A stretch of 64,000 bases of DNA, taken from assembly GCA_964016885.1 (NCBI GenBank), contig OZ024741.1:203174001-203238000 (forward strand). Direction: 5' to 3'. How positions within the stretch are numbered: the first letter of the stretch is position 1; every line of letters begins with the position of its first letter. The notes beneath the pieces are model-generated. The model ran no database searches, was not told the origin of the DNA, and saw only the letters and a program-made list of their open reading frames with translations. The translations under genes and the position numbers were made by a program. This document shows, in pieces, positions 1,723-56,656 of this stretch. The stretch comes from Eledone cirrhosa. Taxonomy: Eukaryota.

Positions 1723-4700
1723 TCAGACCAGACTCGCCACTTTCACCCACCTTTCAATAAACTTACTAGAAGACAACACTTGCCTCTCCACTCTGATTTT
1801 CTTCTTCAAGTGAAACTTGAAAAAGTTAATCAAGGATTGGCTGGAGAGGAAAAAGCCCGTCTTCAACCCTTTCAATCTTGTCCACCACACAATCTCTTTC
1901 GCCATGGTCACCGGGCAGATGAAAACTGGCTGCCCTTCCTCCTCTTTAAAGGAGGATGGCGGGGGTATCTGCACAATGGACTCAGTCGATAACCGGCTCC
2001 GTCGTACACGCGTCAGCAGCTGTTCGACATAGCTCCACAAGTCAGCAATTCCTCGGGCACTGAACGAGTGCGTTCAAGATGGTTTCGTCGCCCTGCACGC
2101 ATCTCGGACAGGCTCGGCTGACAGCAGCTCCGTGCCTGTAGAGCTTATCCCGAACCGGCAACGCTCTCCGGTAGCACTGCCAGGCCAGGGATTTCTGGAA
2201 GTTGTCCATAGGCCTCGGTCTGAAAGTTCTCTTGAATAGAGCGAACAGCTGATCGTCTTCGACGCCCAGGGTTGCCCCGAGAACGTTGTCGCTCTTTACC
2301 TCCACTAGCCCTCTATAGAACGCCGAGGTGGATGTTCCACCGTTACTAGTGCCCAGCCGGTAGAGGGCGGTGAGCGCTTGGAGACATTCCAGCTTCCAAG
2401 CGCTATCCCTCGGTCTTTTCCTGATCCAGGACAGCAGCTCCGTCAAGGAGACGAGCTGGGGAAAAGCGCGTCTGGCAAACGGCGACAACACATGTTCACC
2501 GTCAAGGAAGCACCAGACATGTCGCAGCCTCAGCGCATGTTTGCACATCATCAGCCACAGCATGCCTAGTTCTCCACGCAACGGGTGCTGACCATGGGAG
2601 CACGTCCCTTCCACAAAAAGCGGAAGAGAAGGCGCACCATTTTGGTCAGAGTTGGGCGGGGGCAAGGTACGACGGTCAGATGACGGACGCTATGTACGCA
2701 TTCACCACCTCCACCCGACCTTTTAGAGACAGCCTCCTCTCGGCCCATTTCTGGATGAAAGAGGCCACCCTGCTTGTCACCTCGCTCCAGTCTTTCTTCA
2801 TCTGGAGGTCCGGACCGAACCAGACCCCGAGTAATTTAACCGGTCCTTCCGTCCAACGCCTCACGATGCTGTCGGACGGCATGGACTTGCCTCTCCAGGT
2901 GCCAAGTTGCAAGCTCAGCGACTTTTCCTGGTTTATCTTTGCTCCTGTCACCGCTTCGTATTCCTTAAGAGCGGTGCCGAGCATCTGGACGTGTTTGGTG
3001 CTCGACACCACCACGGTGACGTCGTCGACGTAGGCTGACATGGATCTCCCGCATCCCAGTTCGCGTGGGACCCCTCATCGTCTCCAATTTGTGTATTAAC
3101 GACTCTAGGGCCAGTACGTACAAGAGGGACGAGAGGGGGAAACCCTGGCGGACCGAGCGCATGATGCTGAAAGGCTGCGACAGTTGACCATTCACCCTCA
3201 CGATCGAGCAGATGTCGCTGTGTATCGCAGCGATCCAGCCCCTAAAAACGGGCCGGAAGCCGGCCGCCTCGAGGACCGCAGCCAGGTACCGATGGTCGAC
3301 CCTATCAAATGCTTTAGATTGATCCAAATTGATCAGGGCCCCACCCGTGCCAGGTTCCTTAACCACCCTCTCTATGATGTATCGCATGAGATGGAGGTTG
3401 TCGTGTATGGATCTGTCCGGGATGGCATGTCTGCGCCTCTCCCACCAGATCACTGACGACAAGCGCCAATCTCTTTGCTAACACCTTGGCCAAAATCTTA
3501 AACTCTGCGTTTAGCAAAGTTATGGGCCTGAAGTTGTCTACAACTTCCCCCTTGTTCGGGTCTTTTCTCAGCAGCGCCACCGCTCCTCGGCTCACAAAAC
3601 TGGGAATGCTCCCGTTCTGCTGCCAGTTGCAGTAAACATCTGCCAAGAGGTCGCCGAACAAGTCTGGCATATTCGCATAAAGCTCGTAGGGCAGACCATC
3701 CAAACCTGCCGATTTACCCCTCGTGCAGTCAGACATCGCGCCCCGTATTTCACCGGCTGTTATCGGCTTTTACCAGCACTGCGCCGCGGTCGTGGATAGC
3801 CGCGGCAGTCCGTCGAGGTATGCACCGAAATCCATACTCTGAACCGGCCCGCCGCCGCTCCCGAACAATTGAGCAAAGTGCCTTTGAAAAGCTGCACACA
3901 TCTGCTCAGGTTCGAGCAACATGCGCCCGTTTTGATCAGGCAAAGACTGAATTGTTGCTTTGTTGCCACGTCACGCCTCCACCACCCGGGCCCATTGAAC
4001 GGCTTTCGTGCCCTCGTGTTTTAGAGCACGCGTTATAGCTCTTACAACGCAGCCTTCATGCTTTGCGTTGAAGAATTGGTCGAGTGTCAATCTCGCCACA
4101 AGCACGTCGGTTGCGATGCCTGTCCTAAACGCCTCTTCTAGCTTTCTAACTAACCCTCCCTCTACTCTATTTTCCTCTATCACTACTCCTTTGCTAAACC
4201 TTATCGATTCTACTCTAATAGCCCTTTTCAGGGTAAACCACCACCTGTTGTTGACGATCGCACTCGTCAACGCACGCTTAACTAATTCGCTAATCCGGTC
4301 TCTGTAAGCTTTGCGCGCTGGGAACGACGCGTTCAGCTTCCAGTAGCCGGGCCCTTGCCTATGGAGTCTATCTAAGCCAACTTCACAAATCACAAATTTG
4401 TGGTCCGTGTAGTCGACTACTTTAAATTGTGGACAACCTACACTAGCCTTATCTGTTTCCCTTCAGAATACTCTATCTAAATGTGATCTGGGTGACGCGA
4501 TGCGGTTTGCCCATGTCCACATTGGCACATTCCGATAAGCCAGTCTGTACCTGTCAGAGAGTTCAAAACGTGTGAGCAGGTTGTTGAGGCTTTTACACCC
4601 TCCTTCCCTCTCTACTAGCCCCACATAATCCCAGCGTGCATCTAAGATACCGTTCCATTCGCCCACTAACACTAAAGAGCGGGACGTTCCAAGAAAGGTC

Positions 4701-5080
4701 TCTAGACGTCTGAGGAAATCTGGCCGTCCTGCCTCTGTTGGGGCGTAGACGGCTACTAGCCTGAAAGCATTGCCTTCGCTGCCGGTCACGTCCAGCACCA
4801 CCGACTTACCTTCTGGGTCTAGGAAGATGGCCCTTATGGCGAGATCCAAGCCTCTCCGAATAAGCACTTCAACCCCTCCCCCCGATCCTGGACGGCTGGG
4901 AGATGCGTATACATCGTAGCCGAGGAAGATCGGTGCGAAGGCTTGTGCTTCGGAGATTCTGGTCTCGCTGATGGCCACCACATCTATGTTTAGTGACCTG
5001 AGATCGTTGAGCAGGTGACCCTGCTTCCAAGATGACCCCAGGCCACGTACATTTATACTGCCTATTCTAAGTACGGCCAT
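1723..5080 (-). pseudogene. LINE ORF2 (AP endonuclease + reverse transcriptase), frameshifted
   Basis: Motifs SINVRGL, ISET, VYAP, SHLDRV, GPGYWKLN, GLDGLPYE, NFRPITLLN, LDQSKAFDRVDH, VRQGFPLS, AYVDD and CPRC..ET....LVQC. Confidence 0.92.
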
Positions 5081-5116
5081 GTTGGATGAGAAAAGGGGTA
5101 AGTGAGAAAGGATCAC

Positions 5117-17329: not shown

Positions 17330-19684
17330 TTCTTCTGGTTTTGTAATTTCACAAATTTTTTTTTTTCCAATAGAAAGAGAGTCGGTTTCTAACATAGACA
17401 CAAGACTCTCTCATTGGAATTTACACGTCAACTAGGTAGATTATGTATGCATGCATATGTAGATATGGATGTTATTGTATGTGTGGATGTGTATGTTTTC
17501 AGTTGTATGTGTGCATGTGTGTATGCTTTGTATCTGTACATGTGTATATGCAGTTATTAGATGCAAAATATTTGGAATGTTTTACATATTTTTACTGTTC
17601 CATTAATGGATTGTACTTGTAATTTCCTAACTAGTTGTGTTCTTTCTGTTCCCGTTAAGCCTAGCTTCTCAAGATTTGTATTGAGGCAGTTACTAACATA
17701 CCCCAGTGCCCCAATAATCACAGGCATAAATCTGAAGGTGTAATCAGCGTGGAGTATCTGCAGATTTCTCATCAGTTCTGCATAAATATTTTCTTTTTCG
17801 CTAATGTTTGATATTATATTGGCATCTGCTGGGCAGCTAATTTCCACTACTGTGCATGTTTTCTTCTCCCTGTCCCATATCATAATATCTGGTCTGTTAT
17901 GCCTGCATTTTATTGGGGTTTTTACTGGAACATTCCACCAGTGCTCTTTCATATTATGTACATGGATGTCTTCCACATTGCTGTAGATTTTAATGTGTTT
18001 ATTATCGGGGCTATCTTTTTTACGAACTGCATTGTACAGTATTTTGGCCACTACATCATGCCTCATAGGTTGATAGTACCGCGATGACATTTTGGACAGC
18101 TGCTGATGACATGGGTGATATCCTCGATGCTAGTTCTGCAGAGTCTGCACTTGTTATCACATCTAGGTGTTTTGCCTGCATCCCAATCTCTTTTGTGAAT
18201 CAGGTAGTTCGTGTTAATCTCCTGTTCTTGGATTGCAAAAGCATATCCTTCAAAGTGGGAGCCAATATAGCGGTTGTTGGTCCAAGATAGACTACTTTCC
18301 TTATCTATATTACTCTCACTCTGGAGCTTCCTGGCAACATATCCATGCATGATTTTTTGCTGATAAGTATGCAGTTTTTCATCCATGGATTCACTGCGAT
18401 ACTGCTGAGCGACTTCCCTGAGTGTGAGTTTTTGATTATCACACAGGGAATATCTCTGGAAGAGTTCCTTCCCAACTCTCATGATCTTATCTGTTTCATG
18501 CAGATAGACTTGCTCGAGAAACGGGCTCCTACGCTTCGAGGTTCGTAGATGTTGTCGGAGAGATATGATGCGACATTCAAATGTTGTCTGGACTGATGTT
18601 AGGCTTCTACCTCCCTGCTTACGTTTCAAGTAAAGGCGGTCTATGTCACTGTTGATGTGGAAGTTTCCGGTGTTGTTTAATATTTTTCGAGTTACAACAG
18701 CAACTGCTCGGATTTCGTCTATCGTCCAATTGAGTATTCCAAACGTTGGTGTTAGGACAGGCACAGCAAACACATTGTGAGCCACTGTTTTGTTTTGCGC
18801 AGAGAGTTCCGATGACCAGATCTTTCTTAATCGGGTATAGTATTCCCTGGTTACGCGTTCCTTATTACATATACCATTATAGGATATGTTCTCATCTATC
18901 CCCAGGTATGTGTTGCAGTCCTTATCAGATATCGGTGAAACAGTTAGGCCATTGATGACAATGTTGCTAGATTGGGTTGTTGTTTCCCCTCGCTTTACAG
19001 TCATATATGAGCATTTATCTTGGCCAAACTCCATTCCTATTTCCTTTGAGAACGTTGTAACCAGATCAAGATTTTTCTTCATCCCATCCATGTTCTTGGC
19101 ATAGAGTTTCAGATCGTCCACAAAGAAATTATGGGTTAGGTTCGTATTTCGGTCCTCCTGTGAGCCAATGATGTATCCCTCATATTTCTTGAGCAGAAAG
19201 GACAAGGGCTTTAATGATAAGATGAATAATATCACAGAGCGACTGTCCCCCTTAAATATACCCCTGCGATATTTTATTTTATCAGTGAAAATAGAGTCCC
19301 CCCTCTCTGTCTTTAACCTTAGGATAGGATAGTAGCCCAACAAGAAGACAGCCTCTCTCTGGCTCTGACAATAATGTCTGGGACTTTAGCAAGTTAGAGG
19401 GCCTCTATCATCCAAGAGTGGGGAACAGAATCGAAAGCTTTCCTGTAGTCCAGCCAGACTGTAGCCATATACCTCCTAAGTTGTCGCACCTCCGACATCG
19501 CAGTTTTGTTGATTAGGAGTTGTTCAGCACATCCTCAAACTCCTTTCTTTCCAGCTGCTTGTTCATCTGTGATGATGTTATTATTTTCACAGTGATCTTG
19601 GAGGAATAGGTTCAGGCAGGCTGTATACATCTTATACATCAGGTTCTGGCATGCAATGGGTCGGTAGTTTTTTGCCAAGTGGGT
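17330..19684 (-). mobile_element. 5'-truncated R4/Dong-like RLE non-LTR retrotransposon (RT, CCHC, PD-(D/E)xK endonuclease)
   Basis: Motifs NYRPIACQN, RGIFKGD, FFVDDLK, CRLC...HVISSC, RHD and RPDIMIWD..VEISCP...EKENIY. ORFs 18063-19343 and 17557-18090 are joined by a frameshift. Confidence 0.9.
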
Positions 19685-23175: not shown

Positions 23176-23746
23176 GCGGCGATGAATTAGTTTTGCGAGG
23201 TTTTTTATATGAAATCGTGTGTCGAAACAGATATTGTTATATTTGGGGAGGGTCATATTTGCGTAATATTGCCAGAATTAATAACAGAACACACTCACTG
23301 TTTGGTTGGTTTTCGCTTCTCGCTGTCTTTTATATGTATATATCTGCGATCTAACTTATTCGGTCCTCAATGTTGCCATTGACTGACCGGCGGTCAAAAA
23401 TAATACAGATACAATATAGACAAACACATATATATATAGTTTACATAAATCTTTCGTTGCACATCTGCAACATCGTCAGTGGTGTTATATTCATTGTTCC
23501 TCCTGTTGTGTTGTATGTCTACGCCATTTTTTTGTTCAGTCTGTCTATATATTTATTTATTTATTTGTTTGTTTATCTTATTTTATTTTGTCTTCTTTGC
23601 GCATGCGTTTGCGTGTGTGTATAGTGTTATGTGTGATGTGTGACTAGTGTGTATAGTGTTGTGTCTGCTGGGTGACTAGTGTGTGTTTATGTGCTTGTGT
23701 ATGTATTTATTTATCTTATTTTATTTAATTTAATTTACTTATTTAT

Positions 23747-24415
23747 TTATACTTCTCTTAGGTCAGTGTTGTTTGTTTGGGTGTTGTTGTTGTTCCACTC
23801 ATTCTTTCTGTTTAGCTTTGGTCTTCTAATTTCTATTTCACTGGCCTCTCTGATTTGCCTATCTGCTGGGTCATTCCTATGTTTAGATATTATTCTAATT
23901 TCTATGTTGTCTATGTTACCGTCATGATGTTGTCTAGCATGTTCGTATAGTACTGACCCGTTTTTTCGTCCTTTTAGTTCCCCCCAGTGTTGGTCTATCC
24001 TTTCACCTATGCTACGAGCTGTCTCACCTATGTATGTTGTTGTCGTGTTTCTGCAAGTACCCTCTGTACATCTTATGCTATAGACTACGTTTCTAGTTTT
24101 ACAGTTTATCCGGGGGTTCACCTTACATATGATACATTTCCTATTGGTACAGTGGGTTTTCTTAAAAGGGTAGGTTTTGCTGATCAGGGATTTTATGGTG
24201 GTTCCTGGCTTTTCTACCACCTTTATTTTTAAGTGGGTCTTTCTCAGGGCCTTTCTACACTGGTTAGCTAATTTCCCTCCAGGGGTGGCGTCCACAAACA
24301 TGACACTCTGATATCTCTGGTTGTCGTACCATGATGTGGCCTTCCCTATCTTATGTCTAGCCCTATCTAAGCTATTCCATGATTTGCTCCTGTATAGTGG
24401 GCAAATTCCTTTCAT
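23747..24415 (-). CDS. Inverted duplicate of the PLE GIY-YIG region
   Basis: 222 aa identical to the C-terminus of 24379-25557. Confidence 0.8.
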   Translation of the reverse strand: MKGICPLYRSKSWNSLDRARHKIGKATSWYDNQRYQSVMFVDATPGGKLANQCRKALRKTHLKIKVVEKPGTTIKSLISKTYPFKKTHCTNRKCIICKVNPRINCKTRNVVYSIRCTEGTCRNTTTTYIGETARSIGERIDQHWGELKGRKNGSVLYEHARQHHDGNIDNIEIRIISKHRNDPADRQIREASEIEIRRPKLNRKNEWNNNNTQTNNTDLREV

Positions 24416-25557
24416 GTCCAGTTATAAGAACACCCCCACTAGAGAGCACTAACAAGTTTGATTTAGAACGTAGCACGATGGAAAGCATCCAGCAGATAGC
24501 TAATTCCATACACCAGAGTATAACTGTAACTATAGACTTCCCTTCCAAACACCCTAACAATAGACTACCTGTATTAGACACAGAACTCTGGATTAACACT
24601 ATAGACGAGAGAGCCCAAATTCTCCACTCACACTATGCTAAACCCATGGCCTCCAAATACCTGATACTCAAAAACTCAGCAATGTCCAGTAGTGCTAAGT
24701 TTAACATTCTGATCGCAGATTTGGTACGAGTGATGAAGAATGTGTCCAGCATGTGCGACCCAACAGAAATGGAAGGACACATCCAACACTTCATCAACCG
24801 CATGCAGTTCTCTGGCTACAACCAAAGAGACAGAGTCAGAGTATACGAAGGAGCCATGGAAAAGTATAAGACCCTCATAGAACTGGACATGAAAGGAATT
24901 TGCCCACTATACAGGAGCAAATCATGGAATAGCTTAGATAGGGCTAGACATAAGATAGGGAAGGCCACATCATGGTACGACAACCAGAGATATCAGAGTG
25001 TCATGTTTGTGGACGCCACCCCTGGAGGGAAATTAGCTAACCAGTGTAGAAAGGCCCTGAGAAAGACCCACTTAAAAATAAAGGTGGTAGAAAAGCCAGG
25101 AACCACCATAAAATCCCTGATCAGCAAAACCTACCCTTTTAAGAAAACCCACTGTACCAATAGGAAATGTATCATATGTAAGGTGAACCCCCGGATAAAC
25201 TGTAAAACTAGAAACGTAGTCTATAGCATAAGATGTACAGAGGGTACTTGCAGAAACACGACAACAACATACATAGGTGAGACAGCTCGTAGCATAGGTG
25301 AAAGGATAGACCAACACTGGGGGGAACTAAAAGGACGAAAAAACGGGTCAGTACTATACGAACATGCTAGACAACATCATGACGGTAACATAGACAACAT
25401 AGAAATTAGAATAATATCTAAACATAGGAATGACCCAGCAGATAGGCAAATCAGAGAGGCCAGTGAAATAGAAATTAGAAGACCAAAGCTAAACAGAAAG
25501 AATGAGTGGAACAACAACAACACCCAAACAAACAACACTGACCTAAGAGAAGTATAA
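24379..25557 (+). CDS. PLE polyprotein C-terminal part: end of RT, thumb, Cys linker and GIY-YIG endonuclease (5'-truncated)
   Basis: LPVLD, HYAKPM, CTNRKCIIC, NVVYSIRC...YIGETARS..ERIDQH, EHARQHH and IREASEI...PKLN. The first 15 codons come from the inverted arm. Confidence 0.85.
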   Translation: MICSCIVGKFLSCPVIRTPPLESTNKFDLERSTMESIQQIANSIHQSITVTIDFPSKHPNNRLPVLDTELWINTIDERAQILHSHYAKPMASKYLILKNSAMSSSAKFNILIADLVRVMKNVSSMCDPTEMEGHIQHFINRMQFSGYNQRDRVRVYEGAMEKYKTLIELDMKGICPLYRSKSWNSLDRARHKIGKATSWYDNQRYQSVMFVDATPGGKLANQCRKALRKTHLKIKVVEKPGTTIKSLISKTYPFKKTHCTNRKCIICKVNPRINCKTRNVVYSIRCTEGTCRNTTTTYIGETARSIGERIDQHWGELKGRKNGSVLYEHARQHHDGNIDNIEIRIISKHRNDPADRQIREASEIEIRRPKLNRKNEWNNNNTQTNNTDLREV

Positions 25558-25820
25558 ATAAATAAGTAAATTAAATTAAATAAAATAAGATAAATAAATA
25601 CATACACAAGCACATAAACACACACTAGTCACCCAGCAGACACAACACTATACACACTAGTCACACATCACACATAACACTATACACACACGCAAACGCA
25701 TGCGCAAAGAAGACAAAATAAAATAAGATAAACAAACAAATAAATAAATAAATATATAGACAGACTGAACAAAAAAATGGCGTAGACATACAACACAACA
25801 GGAGGAACAATGAATATAAC

Positions 25821-25862
25821 ACCACTGACGATGTTGCAGATGTGCAACGAAAGATTTATGTA
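25821..25862 (+). ncRNA. PLE pLTR hammerhead motif (mirror copy at about 23442-23483, minus strand)
   Basis: acca CTGACGA t gttgca-gatg-tgcaac GAAA gatt TA tg. The core and stem II are good; stem I is weak. Confidence 0.5.
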
Positions 25863-26065
25863 AACTATATATATATGTGTTTGTCTATATTGTATCTGTA
25901 TTATTTTTGACCGCCGGTCAGTCAATGGCAACATTGAGGACCGAATAAGTTAGATCGCAGATATATACATATAAAAGACAGCGAGAAGCGAAAACCAACC
26001 AAACAGTGAGTGTGTTCTGTTATTAATTCTGGCAATATTACGCAAATATGACCCTCCCCAAATAT

Positions 26066-26124
<59 letters not shown>

Positions 26125-42765: not shown

Positions 42766-43288
<523 letters not shown>

Positions 43289-45273: not shown

Positions 45274-45348
<75 letters not shown>

Positions 45349-49024: not shown

Positions 49025-49112
<88 letters not shown>

Positions 49113-49119
<7 letters not shown>

Positions 49120-49224
49120 ATACTTGGGGAGGGTCATATTTGTGTAATATTGCCAGAATTAATAACAGAACACACTCACTGTTTGGTTGGTTTTCGCTTT
49201 TCGCAAAACTAATTCATCGCCGTT
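49113..49224. mobile_element. Tiny PLE-end fragment with an internal inversion
   Basis: 49113-49198 matches 23232-23318. 49201-49222 is the reverse complement of 23177-23198. Confidence 0.75.
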
Positions 49225-55147: not shown

Positions 55148-55394
55148 TATATATATATATATATCACATAAGAAACAGAGAATCAGTGGTGCGACGAATA
55201 AGATTTATTAGAGACATTACAATCGTTTTTCTGGCGACCAGCTCTAGGCACGATCGATGCAATGATCGAACCTGACTCTGAAATTGCAAGATCCTCGGAT
55301 ATGTCTCGATTCTACGAAGAACAGTTTCTATATGTATATATATACTTACATACATACATATAAACACACATACATACACACTCGCACAAATAAA

Positions 55395-55439
<45 letters not shown>

Positions 55440-55675
55440 ATATATTATATATATATATATAAATATAAGTATGTATACGTACATATATATATGTATGCAG
55501 ACGTACAGTAGTATGTATACATATATATATATACATGCACACATATATATATGTACGTATGGATTCACCGAACATTTATTATAATGCTCGGTGTGTTTGT
55601 AAACAAACATCCCGAATTAAGCCGTACAGTGTCTAGCAACCATCGTTGCTCATTTGTTCAACACTGACAAAGGAA

Positions 55676-55718
55676 CGCTGTACTAGTTTCAAGCTTATTA
55701 GCCATCGTCAGCACCGTA
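55676..55718 (-). ncRNA. Type I hammerhead (left arm)
   Basis: Reverse complement: acggtg CTGACGA t ggct-aata-agct t GAAAC ta GTA cagcgt. Confidence 0.6.
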
Positions 55719-56141
55719 TACCTTCCTGCCAGATGATTGAACGTCTGAAAGTATATACTTTCCTTATGCATATTAACGGCTGAGCAGCCTAATTTGCACA
55801 TAATTAATCGACCGGGCGCACCGAAAACAATAAACGGAAAAAATGAAACGAAATCTCATTTCTCACACTTAGTACGGCTGTTACTTAAATATAAGTATGT
55901 ATACGTACATACATATATGTATACAGACGTACAGTAGTATGTATATATATATACATACATGCACACATATATATGTACGTATGGATTCACCGAACATTTA
56001 TACTTTCCTTATGCATATTAACGGCTTTTCGGTGCGCCCGACCGATTAACTCACTCGATATGCAAATTAGGCTGCTCAGCCGTTAATACGCATAAGGAAA
56101 GTATATACTTTCAGACGTTCAATCATCTGGCAGGAAGGTAT

Positions 56142-56184
56142 ACGTTGCTGACGATAGCTAATAAGCTTGAAACTAGTATAGCGT
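56142..56184 (+). ncRNA. Type I hammerhead (right arm)
   Basis: acgttg CTGACGA t agct-aata-agct t GAAAC ta GTA tagcgt. Confidence 0.65.
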
Positions 56185-56468
56185 TTCTTTGTCAGTGTCC
56201 AACAAATGAGCAACGATGGTGCCTAGACACTGTACGGCTTAATTCAGGATGTTTGTTTACAAACACACCGAGCATTATAATAAATGTTCGGTGAAGCCAT
56301 ACGTACATATATATATGAGTGCATGTATGTATATATATATATACATACTACTGTACGTCTGTACACATATATGTATGTACGTATACATATTTATATTTAA
56401 GTAGCAGCCGTACTAAGAGTGAGAAATGAAATTTCGTTTCATTTTTTCCGTTTATATATATATAATAT

Positions 56469-56656
56469 ATAGGAACGAGCAGGACCCCGACGGCTGAGCT
56501 CAAGCCGTTTCGACGGCTAATTCTGGAATTAGCCGTCGAATTAGCCATCGAAACGGCTTGAGCTCAGCCGTCGTTCCTATTACCCACTCTACTACCCTAA
56601 GTATTGAGTACTTTGTTGCGTTATGGTCCATCTGGTTCCTTACCACATTTCCTTCG

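What the first reader, a model, noticed from the sequence alone, without database searches (positions are those of the whole stretch)
55460..56455. About 426-nt unit present in two circular permutations, one almost exactly a monomer
Seen: the left arm holds 1.27 units (direct repeat, period 426). The right arm begins ttttcggtgcgccc and ends ccgtttat, and these two sequences lie 2 nt apart in the left arm (ccgtttat-tg-ttttcggtg, reverse complement of about 55814-55837). The right arm is therefore one full turn from a different start. Each unit has one HHR and no ORF, and a 25-nt internal filler (56001-56025) joins the arms. Inference: strong footprint of a circular RNA template, that is a retrozyme.
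Basis: partly seen in the sequence, partly recalled or inferred. Interest (0 to 1): 0.78.

Follow-up and report, generated by a model that had tools for sequence, protein, structure and literature searches.

The report
Hammerhead repeat inserted in Penelope fashion
This is an older copy of an abundant 430-base non-coding repeat with a predicted self-cutting RNA motif, present as two back-to-back arms whose ends match the pattern of a Penelope-type jumping gene nearby, so it was likely written in by that kind of enzyme, possibly from an RNA circle, which this one copy cannot prove.

Summary
A left arm of 1.27 units and an inverted right arm of one unit minus 2 nt are joined by a templated filler. 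Each arm has one type I hammerhead motif and no ORF. Reads show a high-copy family that runs on across the unit joint in 5 of 5 runs laid.

The 'strong footprint of a circle' is overstated. The two permutations arise because the arms end at two recurrent 3' points 56 nt apart in (TA)n. A protein-coding Penelope-like element in the same window has the same build: inverted arms, ends 54 nt apart, and a hammerhead core 215/269 nt upstream against 221/277 here. That matches the known Penelope 'tail'.

Both arms cross an intact cleavage site, so the template was a circle, an uncut multimer, or a monomer crossed by a jump. The near-exact monomer length has a 2-7% chance under random truncation. No RNA data were available.

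Verdict: retrozyme-type element, likely Penelope-mobilised (about 0.85); circular template about 0.45. New member of a known kind; interest 0.4.

The parts
55460..56001 (-). Left arm, 542 nt = 1.27 units; 3' end (the 'short' end, equivalent to 56399) abuts (TA)n at 55460
55460..55579 (-). Copy 1 of the 116-120 nt direct repeat (TA-rich hairpin part of the unit)
   Evidence: 94% to 55886-56001
55886..56001 (-). Copy 2 of the direct repeat (partial extra turn); its 5' end equals position 56280 of the right arm
55675..55717 (-). Type I hammerhead motif of the left arm; helix I 5 of 6 pairs (one G-G), helix II 4 bp, palindromic CUAG helix III; predicted cut after A55681
55828..55829 (-). The 2 nt that join unit end to unit start (TG here; CG in most family reads)
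   Evidence: (55829 A>G in 99% of X1 depth)
56002..56025 (+). Templated filler, exact copy of 55754-55781 in the left arm's orientation; 3-nt and 1-nt overlaps at its ends
56026..56455 (+). Right arm, 430 nt = one unit minus 2 nt; 3' end (the 'long' end) abuts (TA)n
56142..56184 (+). Type I hammerhead motif of the right arm; helix I 6 pairs, helix II 4 bp, CUAG helix III; predicted cut after A56178
56400..56455 (+). 56-nt stretch between the two 3' ends, equivalent to the Penelope 'tail' (inferred)
   Evidence: comparator tail of 54 nt
55399..55459 (.). Left (TA)n target flank
56456..56470 (.). Right TA-rich flank, followed by an unrelated hairpin repeat; no target-site duplication can be told

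Best explanation
This is a decayed copy of a high-copy, non-coding 430-nt repeat with a predicted hammerhead ribozyme, which a borrowed Penelope-type enzyme likely copied from RNA, probably a ligated circle, into both ends of a break in a TA microsatellite. Shown: the two-arm anatomy, the two 3' ends in (TA)n, the templated filler, the continuous unit in family reads, and the same anatomy in a coding Penelope-like element 30 kb away. Inferred steps: (1) tandem or read-through transcripts are cut by paired hammerheads and ligated to circles; (2) a GIY-YIG endonuclease cuts (TA)n; (3) each DNA end primes reverse transcription at one of two preferred sites 56 nt apart, helped by 2-3 nt of TA match, which is what yields two 'permutations'; (4) the left cDNA ran 1.27 turns, jumped 174 nt between two AU-rich loops and copied 24-28 nt more; (5) the right cDNA stopped 2 nt short of a full turn; (6) the two cDNA ends were joined. 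About 0.85 for the Penelope-mobilised retrozyme-type reading; about 0.45 with the circle included.
For: Unit joint 56455->56026 read through in 5 of 5 runs laid (3 samples, 3 studies): 1000 and 1072 raw reads from 89 and 103 start places in X21, and 1-3 contigs each in X1-X4. Both 3' ends recur: 81, 87 and 81 contigs run from the long end into (TA)n in X1, X2, X3 (one sample; agreement 0.55-0.59), and 5383/5469 X21 reads run into (TA)n near the short end (agreement 0.85, restriction-site-biased library). Comparator: a coding element at 23177-26073 has inverted arms (99.8% over 1199 nt) ending 54 nt apart, with a hammerhead core 215/269 nt upstream against 221/277 here; a second mini copy at 49112-49222 uses the same two ends. 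Its ORF shows CX4CxxC, two Cys before YIG and an HH, the C-terminal endonuclease marks given in PMC8557442. Family variants near the ribozyme fall on N7 (56152), loop II (56162) and helix I (56145, 56179, 56181), and none on the core, among the 40 of 59 rows shown. Helix I 6 bp, helix II 4 bp and a palindromic helix III fit the canonical metazoan motif (PMC4209133, PMC7229834, passages). Both arms carry the cut site intact and internal, so a cleaved linear monomer copied once cannot be the template. Related animal repeats accumulate as circles (PMC7229834).
Against: Nothing here shows RNA, cleavage or a circle. The active ribozyme fold is 4.4-4.7 kcal/mol above the minimum and helix I pairs have probability 0.18 or less in both copies. 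In the one Penelope system tested in vitro, ribozyme cleavage was not needed and unprocessed RNA was the main substrate (PMC11167929). 8 of 9 Xenopus retrozyme dimers did not cleave in vitro (10.64898/2026.07.22.740005). The unit has no sequence likeness to the comparator's 3' region (46 of 200 shuffles scored as high), so the mobiliser is not identified, and the comparator's own motif fails my stricter descriptor. The arms differ by 5% and the two turns of the left arm are not identical (3 substitutions and 2 microsatellite indels in about 116 nt), so one shared template is not shown. The left arm passed both start sites without stopping. The locus has no two hammerheads in tandem.
Confidence: 0.45

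Rival explanations
1. Same Penelope-type two-ended insertion, but the template was an uncut linear multimer transcribed from a tandem source locus. The right arm's one-unit length is chance, or a stall at the upstream copy of the enzyme's own binding site.
For: Coding Penelope-like elements form partial tandems and inverted arms (PMC8557442). Single-pair helix III motifs cleave poorly as monomers (6% in one hour for the axolotl motif, PMC7229834). Unprocessed RNA was the main substrate in vitro (PMC11167929). The unit joint is common in genomic reads.
Against: The right arm is within 2 nt of one turn (chance 0.023-0.069). A multimer brings two hammerheads together, the arrangement reported to cleave well (PMC7229834).
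Confidence: 0.33
2. The template was a linear monomer (cut at the ribozyme, or with promoter-defined ends near 56026/56455) and the enzyme jumped from its 5' end to a 3' end to make longer-than-unit arms.
For: The filler shows that the copying enzyme switched templates once here. A T6 run at 56442-56447 precedes the long end and an octamer-type word lies at 56060 (label recalled; 201 of 5000 shuffles hold it). Newt satellite 2 is said to have an snRNA-type promoter (PMC2220036, passage). Lead from the AI note e1-8664908.
Against: No indel at the cut site in either arm or among listed family indels at 10% or more. Most reads upstream of 56026 continue with the unit's own end (97, 87 and 108 contigs, agreement 0.75-0.76), so 56026 is not shown to be a common start.
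Confidence: 0.1
3. The arms are only the pseudo-LTR ends of a protein-coding Penelope-like family, truncated before the ORF.
For: Same spacing of ribozyme, short end and tail as the coding comparator. Most Penelope insertions are 5'-truncated (Li et al. preprint, discussion).
Against: Every adjacency of the unit closes into a 430-nt cycle in the window and in reads. The listed high-agreement loose ends are subfamily variants or the unit's own end, not a way into an ORF (24 of 1554 and 12 of 575 rows shown). A coding element's tail should lead into its body, not back to the ribozyme after 122 nt.
Confidence: 0.08
4. DNA-level tandem duplication and fold-back inversion of one older monomer, or an assembly artefact.
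For: TA-rich, hairpin-prone region; templated fillers also arise in DNA break repair (general knowledge). No listed read spans the central junction.
Against: Each arm has its own departures from the family majority (11 right, 5 left, among rows shown), which an assembly echo would not give. Both outer ends coincide with recurrent family ends. The right arm holds 6 nt that the left arm lacks, and the left arm holds the 2-nt joint that the right arm lacks.
Confidence: 0.04

Closest known systems
Metazoan non-LTR retrozymes (Cervera and de la Pena 2020, PMC7229834; review PMC7761336; Li, Clavereau and Pollet 2026, 10.64898/2026.07.22.740005)
   Same: Non-coding unit of a few hundred bases (150-450 bp in the first paper, 51-972 bp in the preprint), GC under 50%, type I hammerhead, predicted self-paired fold, co-occurs with Penelope-like elements. 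The single-pair helix III with a palindromic tetraloop resembles axolotl HHR_Amex1, and the U-U at the base of helix II resembles HHR_Amex2.
   Different: This locus is two inverted arms with one ribozyme each, not a tandem array. The texts I read describe no inverted two-arm build or tail-type ends for retrozymes (supplements not seen). Expression, cleavage and circles are untested here.
Canonical C-terminal endonuclease Penelope-like elements with a CX2-5CxxC linker (Neptune/Nematis type; Craig et al. 2021, PMC8557442) and Poseidon of the anole (Frangieh et al. 2024, PMC11167929)
   Same: Partial tandem plus inverted 5'-truncated arm, optional tail at one end, (TA)n target, hammerhead near the 3' end, two internal start sites for reverse transcription.
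   Different: No ORF. The tail is 56 nt against the 30-40 bp reported, although the coding comparator here has 54. No sequence likeness to the coding element in the window.
Newt satellite 2
   Same: Hammerhead repeat with weak helix III (PMC7229834, passages); reported to have an internal snRNA-type promoter (PMC2220036, passage).
   Different: Only an octamer-type word is seen here (4% by chance, noticed after the fact). The primary papers were seen as reference titles only.

Membership tests
Metazoan non-LTR retrozyme | Type I hammerhead motif with intact core in the unit | tested here: met
   2 of 2 arms; 0 hits in 30 shuffled windows; weak Rfam HH9 alignment
Metazoan non-LTR retrozyme | Non-coding unit of a few hundred bases, GC under 50% | tested here: met
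   426-430 nt, GC 0.37, no ATG ORF over 54 aa
Metazoan non-LTR retrozyme | Tandem organisation somewhere in the family | tested here: inconclusive
   Joint read through in 5 of 5 runs, but no listed read or contig spans two ribozymes
'Active retrozyme' as defined by Li et al. 2026 | Two or more consecutive units, each with a complete hammerhead | tested here: not met
   One ribozyme per arm, arms inverted; this locus fits their monomer/solo class, so I do not file it as an active retrozyme
Metazoan non-LTR retrozyme | Self-cleavage | not testable with these tools
   Folding only: active fold 4.4-4.7 kcal/mol above the minimum
Metazoan non-LTR retrozyme | Expression as linear and circular monomers | not testable with these tools
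   No RNA run was available to lay
Metazoan non-LTR retrozyme | Co-occurrence with autonomous Penelope-like elements | tested here: met
   Young truncated coding element with endonuclease motifs at 23177-26073
Penelope-like element (insertion anatomy) | Partial tandem, inverted 5'-truncated arm, tail at one end, (TA)n target | tested here: met
Penelope-like element (autonomous) | ORF with reverse transcriptase and GIY-YIG endonuclease | tested here: not met
   No ORF in the locus; not filed as an autonomous element
Pseudo-LTR derivative of a named Penelope family | Sequence homology to a coding element's terminus | tested here: inconclusive
   None to the one family in the window; no whole genome held
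Plant LTR retrozyme | Type III hammerhead in LTRs, 4-bp target duplication | tested here: not met
   Type I topology, no LTR pair, (TA)n flanks

The most novel reading that the evidence does not exclude
Both cut ends of a TA microsatellite primed on a ligated ribozyme RNA circle at two fixed sites, and the right-hand cDNA stopped on meeting its own primer after one turn. Such loci would be fossil records of rolling-circle reverse transcription by a Penelope-type enzyme, and arm lengths across the family would pile up at whole turns.
Probability: 0.25. Interest if true: 0.72.

Novelty: new member of a known kind. Interest (0 to 1): 0.4.

Why it matters
How animal retrozymes spread is proposed (circle plus Penelope enzyme) but not shown in the papers I read. 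This locus adds anatomical support for the Penelope half: a non-coding ribozyme unit with the same two arms, two ends, tail length and ribozyme spacing as a coding element beside it. It gives a cheap genome-wide test for the circle half, namely whether arm lengths pile up at whole turns. My searches (open-access library only) listed no paper on cephalopod retrozymes or on two-armed retrozyme insertions. As a single, 5%-diverged, one-turn locus it is weak on its own, and unchecked notes of this scan describe younger multi-turn families in the same genome that suit the test better.

Tried and rejected
Whole genome: none held, so no copy census, flank survey or search for the mobiliser. RNA: no RNA holder listed among 23 runs; this is no evidence on expression. 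Pattern scans found 0 matches in metagenome contigs, prokaryote genomes and viral contigs. Rfam microRNA hits are TA-repeat noise below gathering scores.

Rejected as library artefacts: the large X21 loose ends at 56433/56434 and 56091 and the joint 56434->56091. Read ends in that library sit on AATT sites (55615, 55791, 56065, 56241, 56430), agreement is 0.34-0.53, and 56091 lies in a six-base palindrome in the majority allele (enzyme identity is my inference). Opposite-strand joints at 55808/55820 and 55992-55999 are reads switching between similar parts of the reference.

Left/right differences in the ribozyme first looked pair-preserving, but two of three are private departures from the family majority (55703, 56179), so they are no evidence of selection. 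The filler matches the left arm at its one differing base, but that base is the family majority (56089), so it does not name the template. Departures from the majority, 11 right against 5 left, are not significantly unequal (p 0.21).

RNA-editing lead: A>G 8 vs T>C 9 (X21) and 6 vs 8 (X3); 3 of the 5 left-arm private changes are A-to-G; inconclusive. The strong folding score of the monomer (z -6.45) is partly due to the TA-rich palindrome and is not used as proof. Helix I probabilities had an index error and were redone. The bacterial promoter scan is irrelevant. Pfam, NCBIfam and PDB gave no endonuclease hit for the comparator ORF or its relatives, so its label rests on motifs. Paper searches returned 0. 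Read depths are not copy numbers.

Full report
Observation. The region is two inverted arms of one unit between TA-rich flanks. The left arm, 55460-56001, reads in sense on the minus strand and holds a direct repeat of period 426 at 94% identity. The right arm, 56026-56455, reads in sense on the plus strand and covers the whole unit except two bases, 55828-55829. The rotated left monomer and the right arm agree at 399 of 432 columns, with 21 mismatches and 12 gap columns. Between the arms, 55999-56026 is a 28-of-28 copy of 55754-55781, a net insert of 24 nt. No ATG ORF exceeds 54 aa when either unit is read as a cycle.

Ribozyme. Each arm has CUGACGA, a 4-bp helix II with a U-U at its base, GAAA, the palindrome CUAG and UA, closed by a 6-bp helix I (5 of 6 pairs on the left). 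Predicted cuts follow A56178 and A55681. My descriptor finds these 2 sites only in 64 kb, and none in 30 of 30 shuffled windows. Rfam gives nothing at gathering score and a weak HH9 alignment on short stretches (E 0.13, 0.38). The sizes fit the canonical metazoan type I motif, whose weak helix III needs a second copy to cut well (PMC4209133, passages; PMC7229834, parts 2-4 of 6). Against activity of these two copies, the active fold lies 4.4-4.7 kcal/mol above the minimum and helix I pairs have probability 0.18 or less. Among the 40 of 59 variant rows shown, changes fall on N7, loop II and helix I and none on the core. This fits selection on the fold, but phase is unknown.

Family. No genome is held, so I used sequencing runs: five runs laid, from three samples and three studies. 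Tens of thousands of records were laid in the organism-A runs and 167 in X4 (where the stretch also held neighbouring repeats); on the 491-nt stretch alone, 70562 reads and 12186 contigs. Depth is not a copy number. The unit's end runs into its start in 5 of 5 runs, mostly with CG between (926 and 989 X21 reads). The right arm's ends therefore lie inside continuous family sequence, and the unit closes as a cycle. Both outer ends recur: 81, 87 and 81 contigs pass from the right arm's end into (TA)n (X1-X3, one sample), and about 5400 X21 reads pass into (TA)n near the left arm's end. Several larger X21 signals sit on restriction sites and were rejected. Each arm has private departures from the majority, 11 right and 5 left among the rows shown (40 of 59 and 40 of 164), not significantly unequal (p 0.21). 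The locus is not young. The two turns of the left arm differ at 3 substitutions and 2 microsatellite indels, about what drift at this level would give, so one template is neither shown nor excluded.

Internal comparator. A hammerhead core pattern also occurs at 23452-23479 (-) and 25825-25852 (+). These belong to a head-to-head insertion at 23177-26073 whose arms are 99.8% identical over 1199 nt and carry a 5'-truncated ORF. The ORF has a CX4CxxC linker, two cysteines before YIG and an HH pair, the marks of canonical C-terminal Penelope endonucleases in PMC8557442 (passages). Profile libraries gave no endonuclease hit. Its best named relative is an Octopus vulgaris protein at 62%, so the host is likely a cephalopod. 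One arm ends 54 nt beyond the other, both in (TA)n, and a mini copy at 49112-49222 uses the same two ends. The distances from the core's cut position to the two ends are 215 and 269 nt, against 221 and 277 in the finding. There is no sequence likeness between the unit and this element (46 of 200 shuffles scored as high), and its motif fails my stricter descriptor. The parallel is in build, from one comparator family.

Meaning of the two permutations. Penelope-like insertions are described as partial tandems with an inverted 5'-truncated copy and a 30-40 bp tail at one end, often in (TA)n (PMC8557442). In the anole element the tail is the stretch between two internal start sites of reverse transcription, both DNA strands are cut and extended, and ribozyme cleavage is not required (PMC11167929, abstract and parts 1-2 of 4). 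The finding's two phases are thus explained by two start sites, with 2-3 nt of TA match at each, and need no circle. What bears on the template is that both arms cross an intact cut site and the left arm exceeds one unit. This excludes a cleaved monomer copied once and leaves a circle, an uncut multimer, or a jump. The right arm's stop 2 nt short of a full turn favours a circle but is one event, with chance 0.023 (own start only) to 0.069 (three special sites) under uniform truncation, and the left arm passed both start sites. The filler reads as a switch by the left cDNA between two predicted AU-rich loops (56277-56282 and 56103-56106), skipping 174 nt. This is an inference; DNA repair can give such fillers too.

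Mechanism and odds. Most likely a Penelope-type endonuclease and reverse transcriptase, supplied in trans, wrote this RNA into both ends of a TA break (about 0.85). For the template I put a ligated circle at 0.45, an uncut multimer at 0.33 and a linear monomer with a jump at 0.10. A truncated coding element gets 0.08 and a DNA-level origin 0.04.

Known kinds. Animal non-LTR retrozymes are tandem type I hammerhead repeats expressed as circles in coral, mussel and axolotl, with Penelope-like elements proposed as mobilisers (PMC7229834; PMC7761336, passages). A 2026 preprint ties them to Penelope pseudo-LTRs, counts solo monomers, and found cleavage in 1 of 9 dimers (10.64898/2026.07.22.740005, parts 1-3 of 5). 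This locus works like that kind but fails the preprint's definition of an active copy, so I file it as a solo-type copy. The supplement of PMC7229834 could not be read and preprint supplements are closed; either may list cephalopods or inverted copies. PMC2220036 was seen as passages. The newt satellite 2 primary papers were seen as reference titles only. Searches listed no paper on cephalopod retrozymes or two-armed retrozyme insertions; the library is open-access only.

Earlier notes. No note matched this place or sequence. Searches list unchecked AI notes on other units (310-592 nt) in the same genome with the same two-arm reading. They are leads, not support, and suggest that better loci exist for the circle test.

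Verdict. A real feature and a new member of a known kind. It gives useful anatomical support for Penelope-type mobilisation and only weak support for a circular template. Interest 0.4.

Noticed in passing
window 23177-26073: Very young head-to-head insertion of a coding Penelope-like element (arms 99.8% identical, ORF 3' part with endonuclease motifs, hammerhead core in each arm, 54-nt tail on the left arm only), in (TA)n; used as comparator.
   Followed up: yes
window 49112-49222: Miniature two-armed copy of the same coding family: a 93-nt arm ending at the short end and a 22-nt arm ending at the tail end, joined through a 4-nt overlap, in (TA)n.
   Followed up: partly
window 42879-42952: Older fragment (84%) of the same family's end and tail next to (TA)n.
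   Followed up: no
window 56469-56581 (to about 56660): Strong hairpin repeat (z -13), MITE-like, right beside the right arm; related pieces near 45332, 49611 and 51577; high depth in runs.
   Followed up: partly
window 56060-56067: Octamer-type word (label recalled) in the right arm, 220 nt upstream of the point equivalent to the left arm's 5' end; changed in the left arm; present in 201 of 5000 shuffles. Possible internal snRNA-type promoter, as reported for newt satellite 2; untested.
   Followed up: partly
window 56145 and 56181: Both sides of one helix I wobble pair vary in family reads (T>G 14-55%, G>T 40-69%), a possible U-G to G-U swap in a subfamily; phase unknown.
   Followed up: partly
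window 56118, 56139, 56164 joined to 56407-56408: Three single-start opposite-strand joints in X21 share one side at 56407-56408; either other inverted loci or library chimeras; unexplained.
   Followed up: no
window 56107, 56206-56233, 56382: Reads show subfamilies of the unit: an 8-nt deletion, a replaced segment after the ribozyme, and a 4-nt insertion.
   Followed up: no
window 17557-19385 (-) and 2042-5116 (-): Broken retroelement reading frames; the first has a Pfam RVT_1 hit; the second looks LINE-like by eye.
   Followed up: partly
window 55160-55330: Separate multi-copy repeat on the left flank (depth in runs) with no second copy in the window.
   Followed up: no
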